A DNA stretch of 64,000 bases from Candidatus Aenigmatarchaeota archaeon (GTDB lineage: Archaea; Aenigmatarchaeota; Aenigmatarchaeia; QMZP01): contig JBDRSV010000024.1 of the NCBI GenBank assembly GCA_043824495.1, forward strand, positions 91,056 to 155,055, read 5' to 3'. Shown in pieces: positions 20,198 to 45,038 of this stretch; the stretch's first letter is position 1; each line of letters begins with the position of its first letter. The position numbers were made by a program, and so were the translations under genes. The notes below the pieces were generated by a model that was given only the letters and a program-made list of their open reading frames with translations, did not search any database and was not told where the DNA came from.

Positions 20198-20199
20198 AA

Positions 20200-28159: not shown

Positions 28160-28240
28160 CCATAACCGTTTCATTCACAACCTTTTGCCGACCTTGTCTG
28201 CATTGCAGCTCAAGGAAGTGTGTAAAGGAAGGAGAGTGTC
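28160..28240 (+). promoter_or_regulatory. conserved leader/promoter region copy A (CCATAACC...CCTTTTGCCGACCTTGTCTG...AAAGGAAGGAGA-ATG)
   Basis: About 75% identical to 32682..32757 upstream of gene 32758. Preceded by GAGCTCAT...GGTGGGCTC, similar to 31980-32030 and 32613-32665. Confidence 0.5.
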
Positions 28241-28942: not shown

Positions 28943-28995
28943 TCAACGGCTTGGAAACCAAGTCAAATCAACGACAATGAAAGTTGAGGTGTAAT

Positions 28996-29316: not shown

Positions 29317-29330
29317 TACTGAAGTTCACC

Positions 29331-29380
29331 GGGGATCCCGATCAATCTGGTTGGGATCCCCTCAACCTGACAATAAACTG
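29331..29380 (+). terminator. hairpin GGGGATCC-N15-GGATCCCC followed by TTGACAAT -35 box (cassette copy 2)
   Basis: Perfect 8-bp stem right after stop 29316. The TGACAATAAAC repeat also occurs at 27343 and 30278. Confidence 0.5.
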
Positions 29381-29414
29381 TTGTTAAATGTTCCATTACA
29401 CCAAGGAGGGCGCA

Positions 29415-30233: not shown

Positions 30234-30241
30234 TTGTTACA

Positions 30242-30290
30242 GGGGATCCTGACCAATTCGGTTGGGATCCCTTCAACTTGACAATTAACG
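30242..30290 (+). terminator. hairpin GGGGATCC-N15-GGATCCC followed by TTGACAAT (cassette copy 3)
   Basis: About 80% identical to 29331..29380. Confidence 0.5.
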
Positions 30291-30333
30291 TAACATGTTA
30301 ACAATGAATACCAACAGAGAAGGAGAAAGTCAA

Positions 30334-31659
30334 ATGTGTAACATCATCATCCGTACCATCGTGGCACTGGCACTCATGGTTCTGATCGTGCCGGCCATCA
30401 CCAACATCGCAATTGCGGACGGAACGCCGTGTGGTCTCACCGTAGGTAATGGCAACGACATCGATCGCGACTTCGTTGCATTCCTCAACAAAGAAGGAAT
30501 CAGATGGTTAACAATCGAGGAATTCGTTGAGTGCTACTCCCAACTGATCGGTCCAGGTAGTACCATGTTGAGCACCACTCGGGGATATGGCTGGGGATAT
30601 ATTGACGTTCCTTTCAAGTTTGGCGATTCGGTCGCGTCTATAGTGAACATGGAGATCATGCCAGGCGTCCGGATCAATATGGCTTGGGATCAAGCGGTCA
30701 TCTTCTACAAATATGCGAATAATCATGGAATGCATATTCTGAAGAAGACGGAGAATGACCGTGAGGTTCCGGCCTGGAGCGGCTTGATTGATGAAGCTAC
30801 GGTGCGTCAACATGTCAACGGCTTCGAAGTGTCCGCGCAGATTCCGAGTGATGTTCTGGAATCGGATGTTGCGATTATCCGGATGCGAGATTTAAAGGAC
30901 GCCTACTTGGCCGAGAACACCGACGTTATCGAGTCTTACCTCATCGAGAAGTTTGACCTCGACGACGATTCCGAGCCGTATTCTGACAATCGGCCAAATA
31001 TATTTCATCGCAGTGGCGAAGTCTTACTGGACTCGGAGATGTTCTTCGTGTATGAAGGTCTGGAAATTCTCAATCTCATCATCAATGATCGGTGGATTGG
31101 TGTACGATTCCCCGGATCGACCTATATCCACTTCATCAACATCGGACCGAGAAAAGTCCACGACTTGAATGCCAACTTCGTCGAGACGAAAACTCCGAAC
31201 AACACCGGCGGTCAGATCAGTATCCCGCAGGATGTGATCGAAAAGATGACGTGGATCGATTCCGTCTATTCGGATAGGATGTCCCCGAATCCGATGTTAG
31301 GTTTCGGAAACGGTGAGTACCTGGCGAGCTCTGGGATCGTTTCGTTCGCGTGGGTTGCCTGGACCAACACCGATGGCAACCTCCAGTTCTATCTCAATGT
31401 TCTCCTTAACATTGATCATCAGGTGACGATCGAGACTGTGTCTCACTACGGTGGGCCTGATGTTTGGAGGGCGTGGAGTCCGAATCAGACCTGCACAGAG
31501 GTGGAGACTGGAAACGGCTGGTGTTATATTCACTGTTCCCAGTCGGAAAGTGGACCTCGAATCTGCGACTATAGACAAGCCTTGGACGATGCAGTCGCGG
31601 CGTTCAATGGCATCGATTTCTTCACGAACATGAAGGTGATCATGTACACGGTGAAGTAA
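30334..31659 (+). CDS. secreted hypothetical protein (paralog of 29415..30233)
   Basis: Signal peptide IVALALMVLIVPAITNIAIA. SD GAAGGAG. ATG 30334 preferred. Confidence 0.5.
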   Translation: MCNIIIRTIVALALMVLIVPAITNIAIADGTPCGLTVGNGNDIDRDFVAFLNKEGIRWLTIEEFVECYSQLIGPGSTMLSTTRGYGWGYIDVPFKFGDSVASIVNMEIMPGVRINMAWDQAVIFYKYANNHGMHILKKTENDREVPAWSGLIDEATVRQHVNGFEVSAQIPSDVLESDVAIIRMRDLKDAYLAENTDVIESYLIEKFDLDDDSEPYSDNRPNIFHRSGEVLLDSEMFFVYEGLEILNLIINDRWIGVRFPGSTYIHFINIGPRKVHDLNANFVETKTPNNTGGQISIPQDVIEKMTWIDSVYSDRMSPNPMLGFGNGEYLASSGIVSFAWVAWTNTDGNLQFYLNVLLNIDHQVTIETVSHYGGPDVWRAWSPNQTCTEVETGNGWCYIHCSQSESGPRICDYRQALDDAVAAFNGIDFFTNMKVIMYTVK

Positions 31660-31948
31660 AGCCGAACGCCACGAATTACTAATCCGCTCTTCTTCCCAAA
31701 GAAGTGTGGCTAGTGTGAAAGGAGTATGGGAAGGTTCCACAGTAGTAGCATCAACGGCAAAAAGTAAAAGACAAAAAAATGAAGGCCAAACCCGAGGAGG
31801 AACTCGAAGTGAAGACGAAACGAAGGTCATGCCAATATCCCATTTCGCCCATGATGGCGACTCATATTCTCATAGTCTGACCGGCCGCCGGCGACGCCAC
31901 GGGCCTCTTATATAGTTAGCGGGGCCCATCGCCAATGCAGTCAAAATC

Positions 31949-32030
31949 CCGGGTAGGCTTCAACCCCTACCCGGGGTTCCAAATGAGCTCATCTAGTTCA
32001 GATATTTTCTAGGTGGGCCCATTTGGAATT
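31949..32030 (+). promoter_or_regulatory. hairpin CCGGGTAGG...CCTACCCGG plus inverted repeat TTCCAAATGAGC-N28-GCCCATTTGGAA
   Basis: A second copy with the same architecture lies at 32580..32665. Confidence 0.45.
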
Positions 32031-32092
32031 GTAAATGATTGTTGACTGTTCAATGAGCGTTCCGAAAGGAACATTGCAAGGAGATTTTTATC

Positions 32093-32557
32093 ATGACACA
32101 GCAGATGACATCAGTACCAGATGGTTGGGGCGGAGCAGGTGGCGACAGTCTCGGCACAGATGCACTCGAGCTTCTGAAGAAAATGGGATTCGACAATGCA
32201 ATGGGACAAGCGTTGCTCGGCAGCTTTAATCCACAGGGTTTCGTGGATGCGCTTCTCACGTTCCGACCGTTCCCGGTTGGCGGAGTCTCTCCCGAAGCTC
32301 GGAACGAGAGCAGAGAAGCTCAGTGGATTTATCTCACATGGATCTTCACCAGTCGGCAGAGAGCCTCCTTTCCCGTCGAAGGGGTGAGTGGCCTTGCTGA
32401 CTTCGTGGATATTGTCCGGAAAGCACAGAGCGATGCGGACGCGAACGAACATGCAGTTCGAATCTTGTCCAGGTTTGGGTGTGTCGATCTCCTCGTTGGT
32501 GAAGGTCGGACCTTCTTGCACACGAAAGCCATCGATTTCGCTAATTCCCAAACGTAA
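32093..32557 (+). CDS. hypothetical protein
   Basis: 154 aa, SD AAGGAG, GC-rich. Confidence 0.45.
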   Translation: MTQQMTSVPDGWGGAGGDSLGTDALELLKKMGFDNAMGQALLGSFNPQGFVDALLTFRPFPVGGVSPEARNESREAQWIYLTWIFTSRQRASFPVEGVSGLADFVDIVRKAQSDADANEHAVRILSRFGCVDLLVGEGRTFLHTKAIDFANSQT

Positions 32558-32579
32558 GTCCGCGACATCACCAACCAAT

Positions 32580-32665
32580 CCCGGGAACAAGACAGTTCAA
32601 TCTGTTCCCGGGTTCCAAATGAGTTCATGTGGTTTGATTTCTTGACTAGGTGGGCTCATTTGGAA
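32580..32665 (+). promoter_or_regulatory. hairpin CCCGGGAACA...TGTTCCCGGG plus inverted repeat TTCCAAATGAGT-N29-GCTCATTTGGAA (copy 2)
   Basis: Immediately after stop 32557. Contains TTGACT. Similar to 31949..32030. Confidence 0.45.
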
Positions 32666-32681
32666 TTGAGTTGTAGTAGAA

Positions 32682-32757
32682 CCATAACCCATTCACGACC
32701 TTTTGTCGACCCTGTCTGATATCAGTTCAGGGAAGAATCTAAAGGAAGGAGAATTCA
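32682..32757 (+). promoter_or_regulatory. conserved leader/promoter region copy B
   Basis: CCATAACCCATTCACGACCTTTTGTCGACCCTGTCTG...AAAGGAAGGAGAATTCA-ATG matches 28160..28240. Confidence 0.5.
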
Positions 32758-34749
32758 ATGCATTCACTCCAAGAAGTAAAAGAACACATCAAGACAACGA
32801 TGTGCAAAGCGGTTCAAGTGAATCGCTGGATGATGTGGATCGCGCTCGTCGTCATATGTATTGTGGCGATTGAGTTGTTCGTTTGGTTGCCTTCACTGCC
32901 AGAAGAGGCGCAAGACGTCCTTTCCCCATTCATAGAAGGTGGAAACAGGAATGCAGGCACGTTATTACTCCACTTCTTCTGTTTCATGGGTGCATTGGTG
33001 TCTATCTTCTTCAAAATCTTCGGTCCGATCACAAGATCTTATGATAATACACTTTTCTGGGAACTCCATCTGGGTGGAACAAAAAGGATCGGATTCCGCC
33101 TGGGTGACTGGCCTACTGGTGTGTTCATTGAAGCGGCAGACGTTCTCAGTGATTTACCAGCGAATGTCAGGAAAAGAATTCCGTGCACCCAGTATGCTGT
33201 TTCTCGAATTAAAAGCGTAACGGAATTCGACGACAGCGGTAGAGCCATCGTCCCACGGGATGAGAGTGTGTCTTCTGTGAGATTCGCCACAGTGGATGAT
33301 GGTCGACCGGGAACGCTCGACTTGGATAGGGTGTTCTCCTGGGCGCATAAGTACATCCGAGGCTATTATATCTGCCTGGCCTTTACATGTCTGTTCCTGG
33401 CTTGGCCGGTGATAACCGGCTACTCGATCGCGAGCTTCATGCACGACCTCCCGGTCCAGATCCACGACATCGCTGTTGACCCATCTCAGAATTCGACGAA
33501 AGTAATCGTCAGTTCTGATCGCAATGTCCGGTATGACTCAAGAATCGAGGTTGCAGATGACTGTGTCTGCTCCCGATTCATTCTGAACATATACCCGGCA
33601 AAGTGTGATTTCCTGGAGGAGATCTTTGCCAGTGACTATGTAATGAGAGGGTATTATGGGGCTCGAACCAACACCGGGCAGCTCTCCGAAGCAACTGGAT
33701 GGAATGGTGTCAGGCAAATCAACATCAGACAAGTTGGTGACACCATCAAGATTGTACTCGGCCTGAAAGATATGGTTGAGTACGCAATGAGTCGCTCGTC
33801 AGAGCACGGCACAAAGGATCTGGTCGTTGGTCTGGACACGCCAGTCGAGTCCAAACAGACATCGGGCGAATATTGGACCGCGAACAAGTTCGCAGATCAG
33901 TACGAAGTTCCTGACAACAATGCCCGTCGCGAGTCATCGTGTGGTGAATGGAAGTCGTTCGTCAGATTTGTATCTGCGGATAGTAACAACGTATACTTCT
34001 CTGCCAGATACGGTGGAGTGTACAGAGTGGATATGAATGGATGGATTGACACGATCGTCCCAAACAACGAGGTTGATTACTACCACACGCCAGTGAGTAG
34101 CGGTAATAAACTCGCTGGCATCCATGATGGGAATGATCTCTGTATTGTGGATATGGATACCAGAAAGGTCAAGAACGTCACCCATGGACAAATATGGGAC
34201 GTCGATTGGGTCTCGGACACCGGACTCGTGTTCTGGAGAGATCTTGATGGTGTCTGTTACTACTCCCTCTCTGCGGACTCGTCTTGGTCTTTGAACAAAA
34301 AGGCCAAATTCCCATCTGTGTGTGGGGATAAGATATTCTACCTCACACACTTACGCACCCATCGGGATGAGTGGGATTCCACACTAATCTGGGAGATGAG
34401 CCTTGACGGGTCTTCCAGAACCGTAGCTAGGTTGAAGGGAGGCTACTCACACCTGAGTATGTCTTCGGACTGCTCAATTGCAGTTCTGAAAGAGCCGTAT
34501 AGTTCTGACCGCACGTGGGTCAATAGAATCAAAACATTCTCCTTCAACGACTGCATTATGACAACACTGACGGAGTGTGGTGAGTCTCCAAGGATCACTA
34601 CAGACAATCGAATTGTTTATGTCAAGTTGTATCCTGTGGAGGGGCGTGGGGATTTCAACTCGAACTCAGAAGTCCGGATCATGGATCTGGACGGCAGAAA
34701 CGACACCTTGATTGTCAACAGAGAGGAACTCCGGAAGTTTCCGATGTAA
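32758..34749 (+). CDS. large membrane-anchored protein with extracytoplasmic beta-rich domain (hypothetical)
   Basis: Two N-terminal TM helices, then about 560 aa rich in W/Y/D/G turns; possibly propeller-like. Confidence 0.5.
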   Translation: MHSLQEVKEHIKTTMCKAVQVNRWMMWIALVVICIVAIELFVWLPSLPEEAQDVLSPFIEGGNRNAGTLLLHFFCFMGALVSIFFKIFGPITRSYDNTLFWELHLGGTKRIGFRLGDWPTGVFIEAADVLSDLPANVRKRIPCTQYAVSRIKSVTEFDDSGRAIVPRDESVSSVRFATVDDGRPGTLDLDRVFSWAHKYIRGYYICLAFTCLFLAWPVITGYSIASFMHDLPVQIHDIAVDPSQNSTKVIVSSDRNVRYDSRIEVADDCVCSRFILNIYPAKCDFLEEIFASDYVMRGYYGARTNTGQLSEATGWNGVRQINIRQVGDTIKIVLGLKDMVEYAMSRSSEHGTKDLVVGLDTPVESKQTSGEYWTANKFADQYEVPDNNARRESSCGEWKSFVRFVSADSNNVYFSARYGGVYRVDMNGWIDTIVPNNEVDYYHTPVSSGNKLAGIHDGNDLCIVDMDTRKVKNVTHGQIWDVDWVSDTGLVFWRDLDGVCYYSLSADSSWSLNKKAKFPSVCGDKIFYLTHLRTHRDEWDSTLIWEMSLDGSSRTVARLKGGYSHLSMSSDCSIAVLKEPYSSDRTWVNRIKTFSFNDCIMTTLTECGESPRITTDNRIVYVKLYPVEGRGDFNSNSEVRIMDLDGRNDTLIVNREELRKFPM

Positions 34750-34830
34750 GCGTGTAGTTATCATTCACACCCCGCCTGGATTCAATTCCAGGCGGGGTTG
34801 ATCATGAAATAAAGAGAAGGGGAGTGTACC

Positions 34831-35835
34831 ATGATAAAAATGTTTGGTAAACTGCTCTGCGGAGTTGCCATGGTTGTAGGCGGGTTGATCGCAGTGCTAG
34901 CGACGATCACTTTCTTCGCAGTCATTGGGAACATGGTAATCGATACTTACAAAATTGGCATGCATTTCTCTCCGTTGTTACCGACAGCCTTCATCAGCCT
35001 TTGGGTCGCCGCCGTCATGCTTTGGATTACCACCCTCGGCGCGAAAGGCCTCGGATGGTCGGTATCATGCCATTTGAAATTCAACATCGGTTACGGTTCC
35101 ATGCTGCTGGGAATCGTCGGCGTAATTGTGATCCTGGGATACTACACATATCTCTTCACCTTTGCTGACATCCCAGGACAACTGGTTGTCCTCAGTATTG
35201 ACGGTATGGAGACGTTCAGTCGGGTGGAAGTTCGTCTCATGAAAATCATGGATTTGGTGCCTCTACTATTCGCATCCATTTGCACCGGATTCACCGGACT
35301 GGCTCTCTGGTGGGGACGAATACAATCAATCCGGTTTCCGTTCTCCCGTTGGTTCGGAATCGCTGTCGCGATGATTCTTGTTATTGTCATGGCAGTGCCT
35401 GTTCTTGGTCAGGCCGATTCCACAGGCTTCACTGAGGCCAAGACCCATCTTTGTGGGATGCAGATGAATTATGCTGAATATTTCGGTGAGTTGTTCGCGG
35501 CGCGTTTCGCATCCCGGGAACTTGATATCAATATCTTCGATGCCGATGAAGAGTGGATGTGGAGAATGGTTGATTCAACATTCTACCGAAGGGATACACT
35601 CTTTGCTGTCAGAGACGGGTTCTCGTCGGTATTTAATATGGCCGAAGAGAAGGCCGAGCTTGTGGCCGCGACTGATCTGGCGAGAATTGTCGGGAAAATC
35701 AGGGGAATCCCGGAAGGTGAACGCGTTCCTTTAAGGTATTGTTTCCGTGGGGGACAGTTCATCAAGAAAGATACAAACAGAGGTTACCATGCGGTTGTAG
35801 TGCAGATTCTTCCGCTGTCTGAGAATCTGGAGTGA
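34831..35835 (+). CDS. polytopic membrane protein with C-terminal soluble domain (hypothetical)
   Basis: About 6 TM helices in the first 200 aa. SD GGGGAG. Confidence 0.5.
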   Translation: MIKMFGKLLCGVAMVVGGLIAVLATITFFAVIGNMVIDTYKIGMHFSPLLPTAFISLWVAAVMLWITTLGAKGLGWSVSCHLKFNIGYGSMLLGIVGVIVILGYYTYLFTFADIPGQLVVLSIDGMETFSRVEVRLMKIMDLVPLLFASICTGFTGLALWWGRIQSIRFPFSRWFGIAVAMILVIVMAVPVLGQADSTGFTEAKTHLCGMQMNYAEYFGELFAARFASRELDINIFDADEEWMWRMVDSTFYRRDTLFAVRDGFSSVFNMAEEKAELVAATDLARIVGKIRGIPEGERVPLRYCFRGGQFIKKDTNRGYHAVVVQILPLSENLE

Positions 35836-35876
35836 AACCAACATTATCCTTTCAACATTTGATGGAGGACGGGTCA

Positions 35877-36222
35877 TGAAACTAGTCTTAAATCGTAGGC
35901 ATCTTATAGATCCCGCCAGTGTCATTGGGCCACGCGTGAACTGGTTGTTCTCCTGAATGGCCAAGAGGTTCAGGTGCGTCCTATCGACCAGACGATAATT
36001 CTGATCGGACGCGATCCGGAATGTGACGTAATACTCGATAATCGCGCCGTCGACTTCTTCCATGCTCACATTGATTTCGGCGAGAATTTTGTAGTAATTG
36101 ACAACGTGTCACTCAACGGCACGTTTGTCAACGGAGAAAAGGTCGAGAAAGCGGTTCTCCGTCCTGGTGATGTGATCACAATAGCCAGGTATGAGATTCA
36201 CATCCGGTCCCTCCGGAAGTAG
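35877..36222 (+). pseudogene. FHA-domain protein, apparently frameshifted (or non-ATG start at GTG 35974)
   Basis: FHA core LVVLLNGQEVQVRPIDQTIILIGRDPECDVIL...NGTFVNGEKV lies in a frame with no ATG. A GGAGG SD plus ATG 35877 lie in another frame that terminates after 26 codons. Confidence 0.4.
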
Positions 36223-36935: not shown

Positions 36936-37589
36936 ATGACAAAACCAATCGCACTATCGGCAAGTAGCATAAGACTTTTCCTAGAGTGCCCTCGATGCTT
37001 CTGGCTGCATATAAACAAGAAGGTAAGAAGGCCTTCGGGAGCTTTCCCATCGTTGCCAGCGGGTATGGACAAGATACTCAAGATACACTTTGATGAGTAC
37101 AGGGAGAAAGGCAAGATACCAAAAGAGCTAGAAGGCAAATTCAGCGGCAAGCTTTTTGGTGATACAGAAATATTGGGTGTGTGGCGTAACAACAGAAAAG
37201 GGCTAAGACATACAGACAAAAAGAGTGGCATTATTCTCATGGGAGCGTTAGATGACCTCTTTGTCACCAATAATGGACAGTTTGCACCATTGGACTTCAA
37301 AACAAGAGGCTATCCCCTCAAGGAAGACACACATGAACACTATCAGCACCAGATGGACATTTACTCATATCTTCTAGAAAAGAACAACATGAAGACTGCA
37401 GGCTATGCAATACTCATATTCTACCATCCGAAACGTGTTACAAGCACATGCAATGTTGAGTTTAATGCAGACCCTTTGAAGGTGAAGACCAGCATAAAGG
37501 ACGGTGAGAAGATATTTTTGGATGCTGTAAAATGCCTTTCGGGGAAAGAGCCCAATCCTGGCAAGGACTGTGGGTTTTGTAGATGGTGA
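36936..37589 (+). CDS. Cas4-like PD-(D/E)XK nuclease with Cys cluster (solo; no CRISPR array or other cas genes in the window)
   Basis: N-terminal LECPRCFWL (the Cas4 CPRxFWL motif). LDFK motif. QhxxY motif (QMDIYSY). C-terminal C-x11-C-x2-C. Confidence 0.55.
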   Translation: MTKPIALSASSIRLFLECPRCFWLHINKKVRRPSGAFPSLPAGMDKILKIHFDEYREKGKIPKELEGKFSGKLFGDTEILGVWRNNRKGLRHTDKKSGIILMGALDDLFVTNNGQFAPLDFKTRGYPLKEDTHEHYQHQMDIYSYLLEKNNMKTAGYAILIFYHPKRVTSTCNVEFNADPLKVKTSIKDGEKIFLDAVKCLSGKEPNPGKDCGFCRW

Positions 37590-37696: not shown

Positions 37697-38329
37697 ATGC
37701 TTATGGACGAACGAAAACCAGAAATAAAAATTGTAGATAGGTCATTCTTACTTTACCTTCTATCGAAGGCCCAAGAAGCTAAAGCAGAATTAGGTAGAAC
37801 CTTATTACAGAAATTTGTTTTCGCTACTGAGGTTACTACGAAAGGAAAGGGTGGTGGAGGGCTAAATTATTATATTTATAAATGGAAACATGGTCCATTT
37901 AGCAAAGAGCTTGCACAAGATAGAGAAGTTCTTCTAAAAAACAATTTAATAACAGATAGTAATGAACTTACAAAAGAAGGGCATAAAATATTATCATATA
38001 TTAATCCCATTGTTGATAAAGATTCGGAATCTAAAGCCGTAATAAGTGTAATAACTAAAACTCTTTCTGGGAGAAGCTTGTCTCATATATTAGAAATTAT
38101 TTATAAGTCCGATTTTGATCTCCCAAATGGGAAAAGAATGAAAATAAAGACAATACCAGAGGGGACTCCAATGATTTTCAGATCGGAAGAACGAGATGTT
38201 AAAAACAGATCTCTCTTCACAGAATCTACGATAGAAACACTGGCCATAATGATGAATAAGGAAAAACATTCTTCTCTTAAGAAAGCCATGTCAATGCCGA
38301 TGATAGGAGAATTCAAATATGATATATGA
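37697..38329 (+). CDS. Panacea-domain (DUF4065, SocA-like) putative antitoxin
   Basis: LQKFVFATEV...GLNYYIYKWKHGPFSKEL fits the DUF4065 pattern. Confidence 0.5.
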   Translation: MLMDERKPEIKIVDRSFLLYLLSKAQEAKAELGRTLLQKFVFATEVTTKGKGGGGLNYYIYKWKHGPFSKELAQDREVLLKNNLITDSNELTKEGHKILSYINPIVDKDSESKAVISVITKTLSGRSLSHILEIIYKSDFDLPNGKRMKIKTIPEGTPMIFRSEERDVKNRSLFTESTIETLAIMMNKEKHSSLKKAMSMPMIGEFKYDI

Positions 38330-38724
38330 TAAAAAAAAGATTTCTTGAAACTAGCGGATTTCGTGAATTCTTCCAAAGTTTGAGCGATTTCGACAAAAAA
38401 AATGTTAAAAAAATTATAGAAAAAATAAGAGAACGTGTGGAGTATAATATACTTAAACCAGATAGTTTTCTTCGCTATGAGTTTGCAGGCACGCGGAAAG
38501 AAAGAAGAGAAAGACTTAGAGTATTCTATCGCGTGTGTGAGGAATGCCGAAGACTAGGTCATGATAAAATCGAAGGCAGATGTCACGATTGCCCAAGAGA
38601 AGACGATATCATTTGTCTTATATGGGGAGACGATATTCGAGACGATGAAACATATAAAGATAAAACAATGCTTGACAGACCAGGAGCTAAAATAGATAAG
38701 AGGTCAAATGAATTCTGTGAATGA
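38326..38724 (+). CDS. HigB/Gp49-like (RelE/ParE superfamily) putative toxin with Zn-ribbon insertion
   Basis: FFQSLSDFDKKNVKKIIEKI...ILKPDSFLRYEFAGTRKE..RLRVFYRV pattern. CEEC...CHDC insert. ATGA overlap with the Panacea gene. Confidence 0.4.
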   Translation: MIKKRFLETSGFREFFQSLSDFDKKNVKKIIEKIRERVEYNILKPDSFLRYEFAGTRKERRERLRVFYRVCEECRRLGHDKIEGRCHDCPREDDIICLIWGDDIRDDETYKDKTMLDRPGAKIDKRSNEFCE

Positions 38725-39018: not shown

Positions 39019-39324
39019 TTAGCTTTCAATTCGCGTGGGGAGCCCCGATTCTCTGAGGCGTTTTATACGTTCCTCATGAGTCATTTTACCTGTGCCTCTT
39101 TCTATAGAGTCCTTTATTTCTGTTTTAGATGCTTTGCATTCAGGACATTTGGTATGGACATCGAGCTTTTCTGGATGATATTTTGGTATCAATTTACTTC
39201 TTCCTGCAGCATGAGCTCTCCCTTCGCTATACCAATCAAGTGTTTTGGTAATATCAATATCCGCCTTTTTACAGAATGGGCACCTGATACTTTCTCTTGT
39301 AAATTCAGGTTTTGATCTTGTCAT
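39019..39324 (-). CDS. Zn-ribbon protein (CPFC...CPEC)
   Basis: Two CxxC pairs. Immediately downstream of the RM enzyme gene. Confidence 0.4.
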   Translation of the reverse strand: MTRSKPEFTRESIRCPFCKKADIDITKTLDWYSEGRAHAAGRSKLIPKYHPEKLDVHTKCPECKASKTEIKDSIERGTGKMTHEERIKRLRESGLPTRIES

Positions 39325-39329
39325 ATATC

Positions 39330-42056
39330 TTATATTTTCTCTATTATTTTCTTCTCTTCTTCTGTTATCCCGTATATTCTATATATATATGAATCTATTT
39401 CTTTGTCAATTCTTTGTATCTCATTTTCTATATGTACTCTTCTATCCGTTTTTTTGTCACCTATCTCATTTAAACTGTTATTCATAGAAATTATTTTATC
39501 AACTAAGTTAATGACATCTTTCTCTGTTTCTTTACTAACTAGTTTAATAGGAAATTTCTTCGTATTAGCAATTAGTATTTTTTGGAATAGCCTTTTTGAA
39601 GGATCTAAATATTTCTCTTTATGGTAAAAAGTCATTAGCTTTGAGTTTAAAATTGCTAGAATATATTTAATTTGATCAGAACTACCGTTCTTGGGTATTA
39701 TATTAAATCCTATTTGTGTGTTATATAACTCCTTTTCGGTATATCCAGCGTATATTTTTGGAGGTTTACCACTGATAATCTGTCTCACGACTATACGAGG
39801 TTTTAAGAAAAATCTCTGTTCTCTGGGAGCGCCTAGCCATTTCCCATAACTAATATATTCTGTTTGGTTCCATTTTATACCATATCTTATAATGCCTGCT
39901 CCAGATAAGAGGGGTTTGAAAGTTTCATTCTTTTTTGTTTCTGAATGAAAAACTTTATTTTTTATTTGATCTTGTGTATGACCTTTGTATTTATCATAAG
40001 GTGTTAATCCTAGCGAGAAATCGCACAAATCTATCAAAGGTTTTGTACCTTCTTCAATCTTTTTAATTATTTTACTTATAGTAGGATTTCGAGATATATT
40101 GATAATGTTATCACGACTCCAGTCTAGTTGATTAAATGTTGTGTATGTATTGCAATTTTCTTTGTCTATGAAACTTATCTTTTCTTCACTAGGATAAATC
40201 AAAAGTTCACATTTAGTACTTTTTGTTGGCTTCTTTTTTTGGTATATGAGTATTATGGTCTCTACTTTAGCCTTCTCAAAAACATTATCAGGAAGTCTCA
40301 CAATCTTTTTAAGAGTCGCTTCGTTTAATAGTAATTTTCTTATTTTTGAATATGATTGATTATATAGGATTGAATTCGGTATAATAAAACCGAAGTATCC
40401 TCCATTCTTTAGTAGACGGAAAGATTTTTCAACAAAAACTGAGTACAGATTCATTCTATTTTCTACTGTTTCATATGCCGAAAATAAATATTTAACAATT
40501 AGAGGATCTAGCTGTTTTATATCTACATACGGTGGATTACCAATTATAATATCAAAGGAACCTCCTTCAAAATCGTCTATCCATTTAAAAGAGTCTAATC
40601 CAGCAACCTCTTCAGCATCTATTAAACTGTTTCCATGACATATATGAGTATCAATCTCTGTGGGTAGTTTTCTTCCCTTTTCTGCAGCCTTCAGTAATAA
40701 ATTCAGTTTTGTTATTTCTACTGCTTTATTGTCTAAGTCCACACCGTAAAAGTTATTCTTAAGCATGTGTGTTTTAACTGAATAAATTCCCTGATAATCT
40801 AATCTCATTTGTTTTGCTTCTGGTTTTTGCATCATACTATTCAACAAATGATCAAAAGACTTTATTAAGAATGAACCAGAACCACACGCAGGGTCTAATA
40901 TTTTAATTTCTAATGGCTTCGTTTTTTTATCTGTTATTAACTCTCCTAAAGTGTTTCTAATAATATAATCTACTACATAAGTCGGTGTGTAATAAATGCC
41001 TTGTTCCTTTCTATGTAGTCTCGAATCTCTTAATTGAGCTTTCCCTGATTTCTTTTGATCAAGAATTAGACCCAAGTATTGCTCATAAACTTGACCTAGA
41101 ACATCAGCATCTATCCAGTCAAAATTATAAATGTATGTTTTGTCTTTCGATTCGTATAAATAATAAATTAAATTTTTAATTATAGATCCGTTGATATTGA
41201 TTGTATCACAATCATTATCTCTCGATATAGCAAACAAACCACTGTTATATACATCATCATATGTTTTGAATATTTCCTTCAGTTTTGTGTAAGCTTTACT
41301 ATCATGTAGGTGTTTTATATCGCTAAGTATAACACCATCAGGATTTATGTTTATGTCTTCACAGCGTCGAATAAATATAAGTCTGTCTAGAATTCTCTGG
41401 ACTATATCATCCTTCTCATCAATAGAATACTTTTTTGCATAGGTTTTCTCAATGTCGCTAGCAATTAAACTTCTTATAAGCATCAAATCATTAAGCAGGG
41501 TTTTATCGATAGAAACCCTTTTCTTCAATCTACCTTCATCTTCAGCTTTTTTAAGGATAATATTTTCTTCAAAACTGTTTTTTGATAAGAAAAGCAAATC
41601 TTCAAAGCTGTTGATATAATCTTCTGGGGTATTGAAAACTCGGAATTTATTTCTTATAGAATTTTCTTCCTCTACACAAAATATTCTTGTTTCTTCAAAG
41701 TTGGTTGATACTGCAAAAGGTACTCTCTTTGATAGTGCATATGATATTACTTGTTTATCCGCTTCTCTATCTAAAGATACACCAACCTTTTTGACTTCAA
41801 GAAAGAAAACAGTTCTGCCATTAATCTTAAAGGCGTAATCTGCGCGTCCTCTTTGACTTCCTCTATGTGCTTGAGACTGTTTATCAAAATCATTTCGCTC
41901 CCAACCAAGCAACTGAAAAAGAGGTTCAATTAATCTAGTTTCTGTATCAGCTTCTGACAGTTTTTTATATGATTCTTTGTCAGCGTTGAATTCGTTAATT
42001 AATTTTTGAATTTCCTCCTTAATGATCTCTTTATCCATATAATTAGAATGAAACAA
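39330..42056 (-). CDS. Type IIL/IIG restriction-modification enzyme (MmeI-like fusion of PD-ExK nuclease, gamma-class N6-adenine MTase and TRD)
   Basis: N-terminal RADYAF...FFLEVKK (D..ExK). ILDPACGSGSFL (motif I). FDIIIGNPPYV (motif IV). Confidence 0.65.
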   Translation of the reverse strand: MFHSNYMDKEIIKEEIQKLINEFNADKESYKKLSEADTETRLIEPLFQLLGWERNDFDKQSQAHRGSQRGRADYAFKINGRTVFFLEVKKVGVSLDREADKQVISYALSKRVPFAVSTNFEETRIFCVEEENSIRNKFRVFNTPEDYINSFEDLLFLSKNSFEENIILKKAEDEGRLKKRVSIDKTLLNDLMLIRSLIASDIEKTYAKKYSIDEKDDIVQRILDRLIFIRRCEDININPDGVILSDIKHLHDSKAYTKLKEIFKTYDDVYNSGLFAISRDNDCDTININGSIIKNLIYYLYESKDKTYIYNFDWIDADVLGQVYEQYLGLILDQKKSGKAQLRDSRLHRKEQGIYYTPTYVVDYIIRNTLGELITDKKTKPLEIKILDPACGSGSFLIKSFDHLLNSMMQKPEAKQMRLDYQGIYSVKTHMLKNNFYGVDLDNKAVEITKLNLLLKAAEKGRKLPTEIDTHICHGNSLIDAEEVAGLDSFKWIDDFEGGSFDIIIGNPPYVDIKQLDPLIVKYLFSAYETVENRMNLYSVFVEKSFRLLKNGGYFGFIIPNSILYNQSYSKIRKLLLNEATLKKIVRLPDNVFEKAKVETIILIYQKKKPTKSTKCELLIYPSEEKISFIDKENCNTYTTFNQLDWSRDNIINISRNPTISKIIKKIEEGTKPLIDLCDFSLGLTPYDKYKGHTQDQIKNKVFHSETKKNETFKPLLSGAGIIRYGIKWNQTEYISYGKWLGAPREQRFFLKPRIVVRQIISGKPPKIYAGYTEKELYNTQIGFNIIPKNGSSDQIKYILAILNSKLMTFYHKEKYLDPSKRLFQKILIANTKKFPIKLVSKETEKDVINLVDKIISMNNSLNEIGDKKTDRRVHIENEIQRIDKEIDSYIYRIYGITEEEKKIIEKI

Positions 42057-42193
42057 ATTCTAATAAGCTTTATCTTCACCAATAATTTCTGTTTCTCCTT
42101 TTCTGCCGCTGTACAAGTTCTGGTTCAGTGCGGTTCAACTTAGTTCAACTGAACTGTAGAAAACTTTATAAGCCCTATAAACAAGGATAATGT

Positions 42194-43213
42194 ATGCAAA
42201 AAAAATATTCAGCAGATTGGCTTGAAAAAGCTGAGATTGTGAAAAGAAAAATAAAGGACCTACAACTGGATCCAGAAAATGTTAGGTTTAGCCATATACC
42301 ACAAATTCATAAGAGCACAAAAAACATAGAAGAAATAATGAAGGAGGATGACGGCATCTTTGACCTTTATGATCAAATACTTTCTTCAAATGGTATTATA
42401 GAGCCTATTGTAATTGATTCAAATAATATGGTCATCGAGGGTAATCGAAGATTAACTTGTTTGAGGCTCTTGGATGACCAGGCAAAAAAAGGAGAATTAG
42501 ATGATGAAGGCATATCTAGAACCCAGTTTGAAGAGGTGCAATGCAGACTCTTGCCTAAAATAGATGACGAAACAAGGGATCTTTTCCTTGCAACAATACA
42601 TGTGAAAGGCAAGAAGCCTTGGAAAAGATTTAATAAAGCCAAGCATATATACAGGCTTAACAGAATGCACAAAATAAGTTATGACGAAATAGCAAGACTT
42701 CTTGGGATGGGAAAAGCCACCGTCCAGAGAAATGTTTCTGTTTATGTGGAGGTCAGTAAATATCACACAAGATTCTCTGACGATAAAGAATGGTTTAAGA
42801 AATTCATGCTCTATGAGCAGTTTTTTATGAGAAAAGATTTAAGAGATTTTAGAGAAGATCAAGAAAACATAAACATTTTTGCTAAATGGGTTTATTCTGG
42901 AAAATTTCAAAATCATAAAGATATTAGAAGATTATATGAAGTCCTAAATGATGAGGACTCAAAAAATGAATTTGAAAAGACAAATATGGAGAACGCCATA
43001 AAAACATTGGAAACCAAGAATCCTGAGCTCGTAGACGCTGACTTTAAGAAAATAAACGACACTATAAGTGTTTTACAAGAAATTTCAAGAGCTAAGCTCA
43101 ATGATATTGTCTCAAACCCAGAGAAAATAAAACTATTAAATTCGCTTGAGCATGAACTGAAAAACTTACTGATTGATATAGAAAGCAGAAAAGACAGCTT
43201 AAGGAAAAAATAA
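42194..43213 (+). CDS. ParB/Srx-like nuclease-domain protein
   Basis: IEPIVIDSNNMVIEGNRRLTCLRLL is a ParB N-terminal domain motif. Divergent from the RM gene. Confidence 0.5.
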   Translation: MQKKYSADWLEKAEIVKRKIKDLQLDPENVRFSHIPQIHKSTKNIEEIMKEDDGIFDLYDQILSSNGIIEPIVIDSNNMVIEGNRRLTCLRLLDDQAKKGELDDEGISRTQFEEVQCRLLPKIDDETRDLFLATIHVKGKKPWKRFNKAKHIYRLNRMHKISYDEIARLLGMGKATVQRNVSVYVEVSKYHTRFSDDKEWFKKFMLYEQFFMRKDLRDFREDQENINIFAKWVYSGKFQNHKDIRRLYEVLNDEDSKNEFEKTNMENAIKTLETKNPELVDADFKKINDTISVLQEISRAKLNDIVSNPEKIKLLNSLEHELKNLLIDIESRKDSLRKK

Positions 43214-43310
43214 TGACCAGGGTGGTGGAAGGGGCGACTGACGGGTGGCCCTCCATAACTTCCTTTGTCAGGAAGCGAACACGGTAAAACGTGCCCTGGT
43301 CTTCATAATC
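43214..43310 (+). ncRNA. GC-rich structured element (candidate small RNA or terminator complex)
   Basis: GACCAGGGT...GCCCTGGTC terminal inverted repeat encloses hairpins GGCCCTCC and CTTCCT-ttgtc-AGGAAG. About 60% GC in an AT-rich spacer. Confidence 0.3.
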
Positions 43311-43371: not shown

Positions 43372-43590
43372 CTATAGTTTCCAATAAGTAACTCCACCTC
43401 TGGTTTTACCTCTAGATAAGTACCCGCGTTTAAATAATCTCTTAAGTGTTTTATCTGCACTATGCCAACTCATTTTCGTTCTTTTCGCTATCTTATTTGT
43501 TGTTATGGGTCTCTGGGTTCTTCTAAGAAGATTAAGTATAGCAGATTCCTTTGGACTGAATCTTGAATGTCCGTTTACCATTTTAATCAC
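43372..43590 (-). CDS. winged-helix DNA-binding protein
   Basis: ILNLLRRTQRPITTNKIAKRTKMSWHSADKTLKRLFKRGYLSRGK. Confidence 0.45.
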   Translation of the reverse strand: MIKMVNGHSRFSPKESAILNLLRRTQRPITTNKIAKRTKMSWHSADKTLKRLFKRGYLSRGKTRGGVTYWKL

Positions 43591-43849
43591 GCCTTATCAA
43601 CTTGAAGCTGACTTTAATATCTTTCTTGTCCTTAAGTGGAATTGGAGTTTCTACAGTATACTCTAAAAGATCTTCTTCAGAGAATTTTATTGCATCCGAT
43701 ATCTCTCTTGGAAACCTCACGAAAAACAAGTCTCGTGAGTCCTTGCTTATTTTTGCTGATTTTGTTATAATCTCTTTATCATATGGGAGCTCTTTTTCCA
43801 GTGATCTCTTTTTTTCAGGTTTTTCCCATTGTATGTTTTTTCTTCCCAT
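43583..43849 (-). CDS. hypothetical protein
   Basis: 88 aa, 8-nt overlap with the HTH gene. Confidence 0.35.
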   Translation of the reverse strand: MGRKNIQWEKPEKKRSLEKELPYDKEIITKSAKISKDSRDLFFVRFPREISDAIKFSEEDLLEYTVETPIPLKDKKDIKVSFKLIRRD

Positions 43850-44027: not shown

Positions 44028-45038
44028 ATGCTTATGAAAACGAAACAACTTACTTTAGATCGAGACTGGAGCCAATATAACTTGGCCCAAACACAGGAGA
44101 AACTTCTATTCATGAGAATACTGAGTGATGCCGTTAATTCCATGAATATAGAATATACATACAAAGGCAACGGAAGACCAAGCATAGGCATAGAGGACAT
44201 GATAAAAGTCCTCGTGATAAAGGTTTTCAACGGCTTCTCGCAGAGGAGGACAATACCAGATTTGTATATGGCTAAAGGTTTAGGCTACATACCTGAAGTC
44301 CCACACTTCAATTCCATAAGCAACTACTTCAACAGCACTGAATTGACTTATTATCTTGAGCAGCTCTACAGGATATTGGCTATGCCATTCATTCCTATAG
44401 AACAGTACTTTGCTATCGATTCTACTGGTTTTGGTAAATACAATACCAATTGGACTGCCAGCAAATATAAAAACGCAAGCATGAGAAGCTTCAACAAGCT
44501 GCATATAATATGCGGAGTGCGGACAAACATAATTGTGATAGCTAAAGTGACAGATGCACACCAACACGATTCTCTTCAGTTTCCTAAGATGCTTAAGGAG
44601 ACATGCAAAATATTCACAGTAAAAGAGATCTCTGCAGACAAAGGATATCTAGCACTCTATAATGTGAATGCAGCTAAAGAATTAGGCGTAGTACCCTACA
44701 TAATGCCCAAGAAGAACACAAAGTTATATTCCAAAAAGAGATGGGTGGATGGAGAGGCATGGGATAGAATGGTACTCATGTGGAGACATAAAGAGGAAGA
44801 ATTCAGAAAACACTACCATCTGAGATCGAATGTTGAGAGCAGCTTCTCAATGATGAAGAGGAAGTTTCTTCCTTTCATAAGGAGTAAGAACCCTATTGCA
44901 CAGAAGAATGAAATTCTGGCTAAGGTTGCTTGTCACAATATATCCGTTCTTGTCCACTCAATCTTTGAATTGGGTTTAAACATAGATTTTAAAAATATAG
45001 ATTCAACAGATGAAAGGAGGGAATATTATGACGCCTGA
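44028..45038 (+). mobile_element. IS4/IS5-superfamily DDE transposase
   Basis: AIDSTGF and ISADKGYLA (second D) with VESSFSMMKRKF (E) form the DDE triad. Upstream hairpin GAGACTGGCG...CGCCAGTCTC at 44000. Confidence 0.6.

What the first reader, a model, noticed from the sequence alone, without database searches (positions are those of the whole stretch)
39019..43213. MmeI-like type IIL RM enzyme with downstream Zn-ribbon gene and divergent ParB-like gene
The 908-aa protein fuses a PD-ExK nuclease (RADYAF..FFLEVKK), a gamma-class N6-adenine MTase (ILDPACGSGSFL; IIGNPPYV) and a TRD. It is followed in-operon by a 101-aa CxxC..CxxC protein. It is opposed by a 339-aa ParB/Srx-domain protein (IEGNRRLTCLRLL). 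ParB-like nuclease domains occur in several anti-phage systems, so this could be a composite module.
Basis: partly seen in the sequence, partly recalled or inferred. Interest (0 to 1): 0.5.

Follow-up and report, generated by a model that had tools for sequence, protein, structure and literature searches.

The report
Restriction enzyme beside orphan ParB-like regulator
An ordinary one-protein restriction-modification enzyme of a DPANN archaeon sits back to back with an uncharacterised ParB-shaped DNA-binding protein, whose relatives are nearly always encoded next to DNA methyltransferase-based defence genes and which most likely acts as a regulator rather than a partition protein or a nuclease.

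Summary
All three genes are real and lie where stated, in a Candidatus Aenigmatarchaeota MAG.

- **The 908-aa protein.** It is a standard type IIG restriction-modification enzyme: a PD-(D/E)xK nuclease, an Eco57I-family gamma N6A methyltransferase and a TaqI-like TRD. It is not specifically MmeI-like or type IIL. Its family is very large, and its closest homolog (68% identity) has neither neighbour.
- **The Zn-ribbon gene.** It starts 5 nt after the IIG gene. I found only two homologs. One follows an unrelated IIG enzyme. Its function is unknown.
- **The 339-aa protein.** It has no Pfam ParB hit, but a confident AlphaFold model matches Noc, ParB, KorB and pNOB8 ParB (N-domain plus HTH). Its N-domain is a paralogue of the N-domain of PD-Lambda-5_A.
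- **Co-occurrence.** Among 73 non-redundant loci, methyltransferases make up 35/201 genes within two positions of the ParB-like gene, against 4/252 genes four or more positions away (p = 9e-10). In the DPANN clade, 19 of 22 loci have one within 2 kb. Partners include complete PD-Lambda-5 systems, type II RM and IIG enzymes, including the same divergent IIG arrangement in a second locus. No ParA is found.
- **Operator-like repeats.** Short repeats just upstream of the gene's TATA box change with the protein clade. In the window they are GGTTCA at 42122-42155.

Best reading: an autoregulated ParB-fold DNA binder attached to modification and restriction modules. This is a new variant of a known kind, of moderate interest.

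The parts
39019..39324 (-). 101-aa four-cysteine Zn-ribbon protein (C15/C18 and C60/C63) with a conserved C-terminal GLPxRIE tail. It lies downstream of the IIG gene in the same operon; function unknown.
39330..42056 (-). Type IIG restriction-modification enzyme, 908 aa from the TTG start (probable true start is ATG at 42038, giving 902 aa). PD-(D/E)xK nuclease around nt 41673-41891; gamma-class N6-adenine MTase around 40140-41105; TaqI-like TRD around 39546-39917.
   Evidence: Pfam: HSDR_N 9.5e-8, Eco57I 7.8e-38, N6_Mtase 1.4e-33, TaqI_C 1.9e-17. PADLOC REase_MTase_IIG 1.2e-93. PDB: CamA 1.6e-23, BsaXI 2.5e-14, MmeI 3.4e-5. More than 7,800 relatives at E<=1e-30 among the 8,000 candidates scored.
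42057..42193 (.). Divergent intergenic region that must hold both core promoters.
   Evidence: Sequence.
42122..42155 (+). Operator-like repeats: GGTTCA (42122-27), GGTTCA (42132-37) and AGTTCA (42142-47) at 10-nt spacing, then the inverted TGAACT (42150-55), directly 5' of the TATA-like box.
   Evidence: The exact 14-mer AGTTCAACTGAACT occurs only here in the window. Equivalent repeats upstream of homologs change with the protein clade. The strict inverted repeat is found upstream of 16/31 homologs against 5/890 other genes.
42164..42172 (+). TATA-like box CTTTATAAG, preceded by an A-rich BRE-like stretch, about 22-30 nt before the ATG. This suggests a nearly leaderless mRNA.
   Evidence: Sequence. 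The same arrangement (GAAACCTTTAAAAAC) is seen upstream of homologs. The promoter assignment is inferred.
42194..43213 (+). 339-aa orphan ParB-fold protein ('ParBA' in this report). ParB/Srx N-domain at about aa 14-146 (nt 42233-42631), with invariant N29-x-R31-F32, E82-G-N-R-R86 and H136-x-K-G-K-K-x-W143. HTH at about aa 160-193 (nt 42671-42772). Helical C-terminal domain ending in a long helix (aa 200-338).
43215..43301 (+). GC-rich cloverleaf-like (tRNA-like) structured element that begins 2 nt after the ParBA stop codon.
   Evidence: MFE -44.2 kcal/mol, z -4.4. No ARAGORN or Rfam hit. A comparable element follows the L001 homolog, with compensatory changes. tRNA or odd tRNA genes follow the homolog in L106, L056 and L015; in L105 I read the sequence as tRNA-like, but ARAGORN found nothing and the fold is not significant (z -1.2).
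36936..37589 (+). Cas4-like PD-(D/E)xK protein (217 aa, four Cys). Members of the same family recur within a few genes of ParBA homologs in at least 7 other non-redundant loci. Its relation to the module is uncertain.
   Evidence: Pfam PDDEXK_1 4.6e-8 and PADLOC Cas4. Recurrence in L001, L003, L007, L011, L013, L016 and L034.
44028..45038 (+). IS5-family DDE transposase. Homologs lie within 3 genes of ParBA in about 10 non-redundant loci, often divergent from it.
   Evidence: Pfam DDE_Tnp_1 and NCBIfam IS5. Recurrence.

Best explanation
The region holds two units.

**Unit 1: the restriction enzyme.** It is a self-sufficient type IIG enzyme. One polypeptide recognises an asymmetric site through its TaqI-like TRD, methylates an adenine with its gamma-class NPPY methyltransferase, and cuts unmodified DNA with its N-terminal PD-(D/E)xK domain (D73, E87, K89). 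A small Zn-ribbon protein of unknown, probably accessory, role is co-transcribed with it.

**Unit 2: the ParB-fold protein.** It is an orphan protein built like ParB, KorB or Noc: a ParB/Srx N-domain, an HTH and a helical dimerising tail. It has no ParA partner. It belongs to an uncharacterised, mostly DPANN-archaeal family whose genes travel with DNA methyltransferase-based modules: complete PD-Lambda-5 systems, type II RM and type IIG enzymes.

**Proposed mechanism (inferred).** I propose that a dimer binds the GGTTCA / TGAACT repeats that sit immediately upstream of its own TATA box, between the two divergent promoters. It thereby autoregulates and acts as a regulator or DNA-bound adaptor for the adjacent modification/restriction cassette. 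It may work by a nucleotide-gated ParB/KorB-like mode that depends on position rather than on operators at each target gene. It is neither a partition protein nor the restriction nuclease.

**Shown:** gene content, domain architecture, fold, the paralogy to PD-Lambda-5_A, the co-occurrence statistics, and the clade-specific repeats.

**Inferred:** DNA binding at the repeats, regulation, and nucleotide dependence.
For: - **IIG architecture and family:**
- **ParB fold with HTH:**
- **Box II equivalent:** EGNRR aligns with the GERR of a canonical ParB_N protein.
- **Paralogy:** the N-domain matches that of PD-Lambda-5_A (hhalign 93.8%, E 1.8e-7).
- **Complete PD-Lambda-5 downstream of homologs:** in L003, L011, L016, L019 and L020 the homolog is followed by a PD-Lambda-5_A-type gene and then a D12 MTase gene. 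PADLOC confirmed the A gene in four of them (E down to 1e-116). It confirmed the B-type MTase in L016 (5e-121) and in L007, where no A gene is present (2e-121).
- **Context in annotated loci:** all 14 non-redundant loci first examined have an MTase within 2 genes, or in the same operon in L001.
- **Larger set:** MTases are 35/201 of the genes at positions +-1 or +-2, against 4/252 at four or more positions away (odds ratio 13, p 8.6e-10). In the DPANN clade, 19/22 loci have one within 2 kb.
- **IIG partners:** they recur in L105 (divergent, as in the window), L015, L035 and L076.
- **MTase type tracks the ParBA clade**.
- **Repeats upstream of the TATA box vary with clade:** GGTTCA, GGTTTA, GTTTCC, GTTCCC, GGTCC, CGGTTTAGCA. 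The strict inverted repeat occurs in 16/31 against 5/890. Repeated 5-mers are enriched, p 7e-8.
- **No ParA**.
- **Literature:** orphan archaeal ParB-HTH proteins are thought unlikely to segregate DNA (PMC12704722). KorB is a ParB-family clamp that silences genes at long range (PMC11790492).
Against: - No experiment exists on any family member.
- The operator is found only at the protein's own promoter, not upstream of the partner genes. Examples: none upstream of the IIG gene in L015, and 220 nt from the IIG start in L105. Regulation of the neighbours is therefore not shown.
- The closest IIG homolog lacks ParBA and the Zn ribbon. PD-Lambda-5 works in E. coli as two genes (PMC9519451). The protein is therefore dispensable for the partner's core activity.
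- Some family members sit in housekeeping or viral contexts with no MTase (L046, L056, L107).
- More distant clades have other neighbours: a radical-SAM-like protein, an Hjc-like protein, a DndB-like protein and a canonical ParB_N protein.
- The catalytic Glu of GERR is an invariant Asn, so a CTPase cycle is doubtful.
- My gene calls and MTase HMMs in the metagenome loci are home-made.
Confidence: 0.5

Rival explanations
1. The ParB-like protein is an effector or sensor subunit of a methylation-dependent defence system, a divergent counterpart of PD-Lambda-5_A. The adjacent methyltransferase marks self DNA, and the ParB-like protein recognises or attacks unmodified DNA, or triggers abortive infection.
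For: - It shares a specific N-domain subfamily with PD-Lambda-5_A.
- In L007, L009/L018, L013 and L031 it is followed directly by a D12 MTase with no PD-Lambda-5_A gene, as if it replaced that protein. PADLOC confirmed the MTase as PD-Lambda-5_B type in L007.
- PADLOC candidate PDC-M38A shares the ParB+HTH half (1e-19).
- ParB-superfamily domains (DndB, DUF262) are known partners of modification systems (PMC3632139).
Against: - It lacks the C-terminal half of PD-Lambda-5_A and has an HTH plus a helical tail instead.
- No conserved His or acidic catalytic motif is present in the C-terminal part.
- In five loci it coexists with a full PD-Lambda-5_A, so it is an extra gene rather than a substitute.
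- The conserved sequence-specific repeats at its own promoter fit a regulator better.
- Its partners include complete RM systems that already have their own nuclease.
Confidence: 0.2
2. It is a centromere-binding or chromosome- or element-organising ParB that uses the upstream repeats as a parS-like site. It works with a motor encoded elsewhere, or with none. The methyltransferase neighbours reflect a shared location on mobile elements or at an integration hotspot, not a shared function.
For: - Full ParB-like architecture.
- Iterated 10-11-bp repeats flank the promoter in some clades, resembling plasmid centromeres.
- IS5-like transposases are adjacent in about 10 loci, an integrase-like gene in L013, and tRNA or tRNA-like genes lie directly downstream in several loci.
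- One homolog lies on an IMG/VR viral contig.
- A survey reports that orphan ParBs are often linked to mobile elements (PMC12704722).
Against: - No ParA or other motor lies in any examined locus.
- There is a single repeat cluster per locus and no further copies in the 64-kb window.
- The contigs are long and chromosomal, with housekeeping neighbours.
- The region has the native low-GC composition.
- No att duplication was found.
- The MTase class is co-inherited with the ParBA clade, which a passive hotspot would not predict.
Confidence: 0.15
3. In this particular window the three genes are merely neighbours. The IIG enzyme acts alone, the Zn-ribbon protein and the ParB-like protein have unrelated roles, and the family-wide association is a by-product of accessory-gene clustering in small DPANN genomes.
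For: - Type IIG enzymes are single-chain systems.
- The nearest IIG homolog has neither neighbour.
- One Zn-ribbon homolog is not next to an IIG enzyme.
- Some ParBA homologs have no MTase nearby.
Against: - The enrichment is 13-fold over genes in the same loci.
- The divergent IIG/ParBA pair recurs at 38%/69% identity in L105.
- IIG enzymes occur in five non-redundant loci: the window, L015, L035, L076 and L105.
- The Zn ribbon follows a 25%-identical IIG enzyme in L023.
Confidence: 0.1

Closest known systems
Type IIG restriction-modification enzymes of the Eco57I/BpuSI/BsaXI kind (REase-MTase-TRD in one chain)
   Same: N-terminal PD-(D/E)xK nuclease, gamma-class N6A MTase with DPACGSGSF and NPPY motifs, and a C-terminal TaqI-like TRD. 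Full-length PADLOC IIG hit, and a very large family of about 900-aa relatives.
   Different: Nothing unusual in the enzyme itself. The recognition site and cleavage offset are unknown. It is followed by a small Zn-ribbon gene that most relatives lack.
MmeI (type IIL)
   Same: Same general class of single-chain RM enzyme. Weak similarity in the MTase core (Pfam MmeI_Mtase 5e-13; PDB 5hr4 at 3.4e-5).
   Different: No match to any MmeI-specific family other than MmeI_Mtase. The nuclease is HSDR_N-type and the TRD is TaqI_C-type.
PD-Lambda-5 (Vassallo et al. 2022, PMC9519451): a two-gene defence system, A (ParB-like N-domain protein) plus B (D12-class MTase)
   Same: The 339-aa protein shares the N-domain subfamily of PD-Lambda-5_A (NxRF, (E/D)GNRR, H..G..PW). 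Its Pace- and Woesearchaeota orthologues sit directly upstream of complete PD-Lambda-5 A+B pairs.
   Different: The window has no PD-Lambda-5_A or B. The 339-aa protein has an HTH and a helical tail instead of the PD-Lambda-5_A C-terminal half. It would be a third component that was not part of the two-gene system cloned in E. coli.
KorB / Noc / ParB (ParB-CTPase-fold DNA clamps, including the transcriptional silencer KorB, PMC11790492)
   Same: N-domain plus HTH plus C-terminal dimerising region. These are the best structural matches. A specific repeat site lies next to its own gene. It is an orphan without ParA, like other archaeal ParB-HTH proteins (PMC12704722).
   Different: Not detected by Pfam ParB_N. 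GERR is GNRR (the catalytic Glu is replaced). Box III is replaced by HxKGKKxW. No KorA-like partner is known. Genomic partners are methyltransferases, not partition or plasmid-maintenance genes.
RM controller (C) proteins and defence-island regulators such as BrxR/CapW
   Same: A separately transcribed DNA-binding protein with an inverted repeat at its own promoter, found beside restriction/modification systems of several unrelated types.
   Different: It is 339 aa with a ParB fold, rather than an 80-100-aa Xre HTH (C proteins) or a WYL-domain regulator. It does not overlap an R gene. No operator copies were seen at partner promoters. The comparison with BrxR/CapW rests on my own knowledge.
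DndB / DUF262 (DGQHR) ParB-superfamily proteins linked to DNA-modification systems (PMC3632139)
   Same: A ParB-superfamily domain protein encoded beside DNA-modification genes. DndB is considered a regulator of the dnd operon.
   Different: No DndB or DUF262 Pfam hit, no DGQHR motif, and an HTH instead of HEPN or nuclease fusions.

Membership tests
Type IIG restriction-modification enzyme | Endonuclease, methyltransferase and target-recognition domains in one polypeptide | tested here: met
   Pfam HSDR_N (56-128), Eco57I/N6_Mtase (318-639), TaqI_C (714-837). PADLOC REase_MTase_IIG 1.2e-93 over residues 12-706.
Type IIG restriction-modification enzyme | Catalytic motifs: PD...(D/E)xK; SAM motif I; motif IV NPPY | tested here: met
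   D73, E87-V-K89; ILDPACGSGSFL; IIGNPPYV, read from the translation.
Type IIG restriction-modification enzyme | Site-specific methylation and cleavage at a distance from the site | not testable with these tools
   Needs enzyme assays or methylome data.
MmeI family / type IIL | MmeI-type N-terminal nuclease, helical spacer, TRD and C-terminal domains | tested here: not met
   The only MmeI-named Pfam family that matched at E<=0.01 is MmeI_Mtase (5.4e-13), below Eco57I (7.8e-38). MmeI (5hr4) matches residues 352-578 only, at 3.4e-5.
MmeI family / type IIL | Modification of only one DNA strand | not testable with these tools
   Biochemical property.
ParB-CTPase fold (ParB/Srx, Pfam PF02195) | Sequence match to ParB_N | tested here: not met
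   No Pfam hit at E<=0.01. The family profile finds no ParB in PDB sequences. hhalign to a canonical ParB_N protein gives only E 0.027.
ParB-CTPase fold (ParB/Srx, Pfam PF02195) | ParB/Srx fold of the N-domain followed by an HTH | tested here: met
ParB-CTPase fold (ParB/Srx, Pfam PF02195) | GERRxRA box II and ENxxR box III (CTP binding and hydrolysis) | tested here: inconclusive
   Box II is the invariant EGNRR: both Arg are kept and the catalytic Glu is Asn. Box III is replaced by the invariant HxKGKKxW. Nucleotide binding was not tested.
ParABS partition system | Adjacent parA (Walker ATPase) gene | tested here: not met
   None in the window between 28 and 50 kb. None in L001-L015 with Pfam annotation.
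ParABS partition system | parS-type palindromes, often several copies near the locus | tested here: inconclusive
   One cluster of GGTTCA repeats at the promoter. No further copies in the 64 kb.
PD-Lambda-5 defence system | PD-Lambda-5_A (about 440-aa ParB-like protein) plus PD-Lambda-5_B (D12-class MTase) as neighbours | tested here: not met
   The window has neither. The 339-aa protein matches only the first 80-150 positions of the A profiles. Orthologues in L003, L011, L016, L019 and L020 do sit upstream of A+B pairs.
RM controller (C) protein | Small Xre-type HTH protein with a C-box operator upstream, usually preceding or overlapping the R gene | tested here: not met
   339 aa with a ParB fold, and divergent from the RM gene. 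Only the operator-like inverted repeat is analogous.

The most novel reading that the evidence does not exclude
The 339-aa family is an archaeal, nucleotide-gated ParB/KorB-like clamp. It loads at the clade-specific repeats beside its own gene and controls whichever methyltransferase-based defence cassette lies next to it (PD-Lambda-5, type II or type IIG RM). This control would depend on position rather than on operators at each target. It would be a new class of defence or RM regulator built on the ParB fold, possibly sensitive to methylation of its own operator.
Probability: 0.2. Interest if true: 0.7.

Novelty: new variant of a known kind. Interest (0 to 1): 0.5.

Why it matters
- **The restriction enzyme is routine.** The value lies in its neighbour.
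- **A sizeable family that standard models miss.** There are 197 clusters at 50% identity with E<=1e-30 and 988 with E<=1e-10. Pfam's ParB model does not detect them, so surveys based on that model probably miss them.
- **A consistent genomic signature.** The family is tied to DNA methyltransferase-based immunity in DPANN and other archaea, including an experimentally validated bacterial system (PD-Lambda-5).
- **A testable DNA target.** Each clade carries its own short repeat at the promoter.
- **What it would show if confirmed.** The ParB switch fold would have been recruited to control or assist restriction/modification. It would also provide a handle on how genome-reduced archaea regulate toxic RM genes.
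- **Practical use.** The gene would serve as a marker for finding defence cassettes in archaeal metagenomes.

Tried and rejected
- **PDB sequence search with the family profile:** only chance hits, E>0.3.
- **AFDB fold search:** the library was not available.
- **Literature on PDC-M38:** none found.
- **'Aloposons' (transposons reported to carry ParB-like genes):** they are defined by giant genes and a MinD/ParA ATPase, so they are unrelated.
- **tRNA-like element:** not recognised by ARAGORN or Rfam, even at E<=1. A four-way alignment with elements from related loci failed. No second copy or att-like repeat in the window.
- **Operator copies elsewhere:** none near the IIG gene of L015. In the window, the strict inverted-repeat pattern gives only the promoter cluster and one further match at 48257, inside the inositol-phosphate synthase gene. 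14-mer matches elsewhere are at the chance rate.
- **Sigma-70 promoter scan:** not informative for an archaeon.
- **338-aa gene next to the closest IIG homolog (L108):** checked as a possible ParBA; it is not one.
- **HEPN-type Rx4-6H motif in the C-terminal domain:** no conserved His.

Full report
**Observation**

The three ORFs exist as described:
- a 101-aa protein with CxxC...CxxC at 39019-39324 (-);
- a 908-aa protein at 39330-42056 (-);
- a 339-aa protein at 42194-43213 (+).

All three proteins are annotated in a Candidatus Aenigmatarchaeota (DPANN) MAG. NCBI starts the large gene at Met7 (902 aa). The region has the low GC content (about 0.32) of the housekeeping parts of the window, not that of the high-GC islands. 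The Zn-ribbon gene begins 5 nt after the stop codon of the large gene. The 339-aa gene is divergent, with 137 nt between the ORFs.

**The large protein**

Pfam finds four domains:
- an Eco57I / N6_Mtase gamma-class adenine methyltransferase (318-639);
- motif I DPACGSGSF and motif IV NPPY within that domain;
- a TaqI_C target-recognition domain (714-837).

PADLOC gives a near full-length type IIG hit at 1.2e-93.

Among solved structures the best sequence matches are CamA, BsaXI, TaqI and PglX/BrxX. MmeI matches only the MTase core, at 3.4e-5. The only MmeI-named Pfam family that matched at E<=0.01 is MmeI_Mtase. The protein is therefore a generic type IIG enzyme, not specifically 'MmeI-like type IIL'.

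The family is very large: more than 7,800 relatives at E<=1e-30 among the 8,000 candidates scored, from archaea and bacteria. The closest homolog (68% identity, a Nanoarchaeota MAG) has neither a Zn-ribbon nor a ParB-like neighbour. This part of the finding is ordinary.

**The Zn-ribbon protein**

It has no significant match in Pfam, NCBIfam or PADLOC. Only two homologs exist in 5.8 billion proteins.
- One homolog (46% identity) lies 23 nt downstream of a different type IIG enzyme that is only 25% identical to the one here (L023). This argues for a real link.
- The other follows a DUF6996/DUF6997 protein (L024).

**The 339-aa protein is ParB-shaped**

Sequence methods do not show this. There is no Pfam ParB_N hit, and a family profile finds nothing in PDB.

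A 30-sequence alignment gives a confident model (pLDDT 89.9).
- Foldseek matches are all ParB-family proteins covering both the N-domain and the HTH: Noc, Caulobacter and Myxococcus ParB, KorB, Spo0J and pNOB8 ParB (probability 1.00, E 5e-5 to 3e-3).

Invariant residues form N29-x-R31-F32, E82-G-N-R-R86 and H136-x-K-G-K-K-x-W143, followed by an HTH (LGMGKxTVxR) and a helical C-terminal domain that ends in a 30-residue helix. Against a canonical ParB_N protein, EGNRR aligns with GERR. The two phosphate-binding arginines are kept. The Glu that is the catalytic residue for CTP hydrolysis in ParB (my own knowledge of the ParB literature) is an invariant Asn.

**Relatives and their neighbours**

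PADLOC links the protein to candidate PDC-M38A (1e-19, ParB+HTH half) and to the first about 90 positions of PD-Lambda-5_A. I examined 22 loci from assemblies and GTDB genomes.
- Every one of the 14 non-redundant loci has a DNA methyltransferase within two genes or in the same operon.
- In Pace- and Woesearchaeota the next two genes are a PD-Lambda-5_A-type gene and a D12 MTase. PADLOC scored the A gene at 1e-116 (full length) and the B-type MTase at 5e-121.
- PD-Lambda-5_A itself begins with the same domain subfamily (hhalign 93.8%, E 1.8e-7).

The type IIG partners are:
- L015 and L035: IIG, one intervening gene, an N6_N4 MTase, then ParBA;
- L076;
- L105, where a 69%-identical ParBA is divergent from an IIG enzyme 38% identical to the window's. 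This is the same layout as in the window.

**Co-occurrence statistics**

Adding 80 metagenome loci gives 73 non-redundant family members. I detected MTases with HMMs that I built from the annotated seeds.
- MTases are 35/201 of the genes of at least 100 aa at positions +-1 or +-2, against 4/252 at four or more positions away (odds ratio 13, Fisher p 8.6e-10).
- In the DPANN clade, 19 of the 22 loci with at least 1.5 kb on both sides have an MTase within 2 kb.
- The MTase class follows the ParBA clade. This speaks for co-inheritance rather than random insertion.

Exceptions exist.
- L046 and L056 are housekeeping contexts, and L107 is a viral contig.
- More distant soil clades show a divergent N6_N4 MTase plus a canonical ParB_N protein. 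Others show radical-SAM-like, Hjc-like and DndB-like neighbours.

The family is not small: 197 clusters at 50% identity with E<=1e-30 and 988 with E<=1e-10.

No ParA-like gene appears in the window (28-50 kb) or in any annotated locus.

**A conserved cis element**

Immediately 5' of a BRE/TATA-like box, about 25 nt before the start codon, the family carries short repeats whose sequence changes with the protein clade:

| Repeat | Where |
|---|---|
| GGTTCA / TGAACC | window, L001, L026, L027, L105 |
| GGTTTA / TAAACC | Pace- and Woesearchaeota |
| GTTTCC / GGAAAC | L046, L056 |
| GTTCCC / GGGAAC | L032 |
| three to five GGTCC / GGACC at 10-11-bp spacing, on both sides of the TATA box | soil clade |
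| CGGTTTAGCA, 3-4 copies | L082, L083 |

In the window the repeats are GGTTCA (42122, 42132), AGTTCA (42142) and the inverted TGAACT (42150). The TATA-like CTTTATAAG is at 42164-42172 and the ATG is at 42194.

A strict inverted-repeat pattern occurs within 110 nt upstream of 16/31 DPANN-clade genes, against 5/890 other genes in the same loci. Repeated 5-mers are enriched, p 7e-8. Repeats that change together with the protein are the signature of a sequence-specific DNA binder acting at its own promoter.

The element was not found upstream of partner genes. Examples are the IIG gene of L015, and L105, where it lies 220 nt from the IIG start. Control of the neighbours is therefore not shown. In the window the repeats do lie between the two divergent promoters.

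**Interpretation**

The most economical model is an autoregulated ParB-fold DNA-binding protein that accompanies modification/restriction cassettes as a regulator or DNA-bound adaptor.
- The ParB/KorB precedent is a clamp loaded at one site that silences genes at a distance (PMC11790492). It offers a way to act on whatever lies next door without operators at each gene. This step is inference.
- A recent survey notes that archaeal ParB-HTH orphans rarely have ParA and are unlikely to segregate DNA. It also notes that ParB-MTase fusions abound in prophages (PMC12704722). That survey used PF02195, which does not detect this family.
- PD-Lambda-5 protects E. coli as a two-gene system (PMC9519451), and the nearest IIG homolog stands alone. 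ParBA is therefore accessory, not essential.

Three rivals remain open:
- an effector or sensor role like PD-Lambda-5_A;
- a centromere or mobile-element role;
- simple neighbourhood.

They are weighed in the report sections.

**Verdict**

The 'composite module' idea is partly supported, and the MmeI/type IIL label is not.

The restriction enzyme is already-known biology. The ParB-like protein is a new variant of a known kind: an orphan ParB-fold protein, here tied to methyltransferase-based defence and to a recognisable operator. Interest is moderate (0.5). The claim rests on comparative genomics and a predicted structure only.

Noticed in passing
window 43215-43301 (+): A GC-rich, cloverleaf-like RNA structure starts 2 nt after the ParBA stop codon. 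It has an 8-bp closing stem and three hairpins (dG -44.2, z -4.4). ARAGORN and Rfam do not recognise it. An equivalent element with compensatory changes follows the L001 homolog. An odd 'tRNA-???' plus tRNA-Trp (L106), tRNA-Ser (L056) and tRNA-Gly (L015) follow other homologs. It could be a degenerate tRNA, a processing signal or an integration-site relic.
   Followed up: partly
L003 9009-9125, and the same position in L007, L009, L011, L013, L016, L017, L020: The spacer between ParBA and the PD-Lambda-5 or MTase gene is conserved at the nucleotide level. It holds a palindrome TCAATATTGAC at the stop codon, a 19-bp hairpin with three compensatory pairs, and then a TATA-like CTTTTTAAAG. It is more conserved than the flanking proteins. 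It could be a terminator, a regulatory RNA or a protein-binding site.
   Followed up: partly
L015 7042-7075, upstream of tRNA-Gly(TCC) at 7104-7180: A second, near-identical copy of the ParBA operator plus TATA box (AGTTTAgattAGTTCAgagaaaacTATTTAAACC) sits in front of a tRNA gene just downstream of ParBA.
   Followed up: no
window 44028-45038 (+): An IS5-family transposase. Homologs at phmmer E-values between about 1e-67 and 1e-83 lie within three genes of ParBA in about 10 non-redundant loci, often divergent and sharing the repeat-bearing intergenic region.
   Followed up: partly
window 36936-37589 (+): A Cas4-like PD-(D/E)xK protein with four cysteines. The same family recurs next to or near ParBA/MTase modules in L001, L003, L007, L011, L013, L016 and L034.
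   Followed up: partly
window 37697-38724 (+): An overlapping gene pair (210 aa and 132 aa, ATGA overlap). The first has a weak PADLOC PDC-M19A hit (3.5e-6). The second is cysteine-rich. It may be a toxin-antitoxin or a small defence module.
   Followed up: no
window 43372-43849 (-): An overlapping pair convergent with ParBA: a 72-aa winged-helix protein (Lrs14/MarR-like) and an 88-aa protein with no family.
   Followed up: no
window 1000-3000, 15000-23500, 27000-36000, 57000-59000: Islands of 0.44-0.58 GC in a genome of about 0.33 GC. The five large ORFs (233-663 aa) tested between 28 and 36 kb have no Pfam match at E<=0.001. An FHA-domain protein (35974-36222) sits at the island edge. There is no rRNA or tRNA in the window.
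   Followed up: no
window 47035-49560 (-): A myo-inositol-1-phosphate synthase gene interrupted by an intein with a LAGLIDADG homing-endonuclease domain.
   Followed up: no
L065 8991-10118; L083 4794-5939; L085 6247-6537; L087 3764-5818: Distant ParBA clades from soil metagenomes have other partners. These are a canonical ParB_N protein immediately downstream, a B12-binding/radical-SAM-like protein (sub-threshold) plus a 94-aa protein upstream, an Hjc-like small nuclease, and a DndB-like protein.
   Followed up: partly
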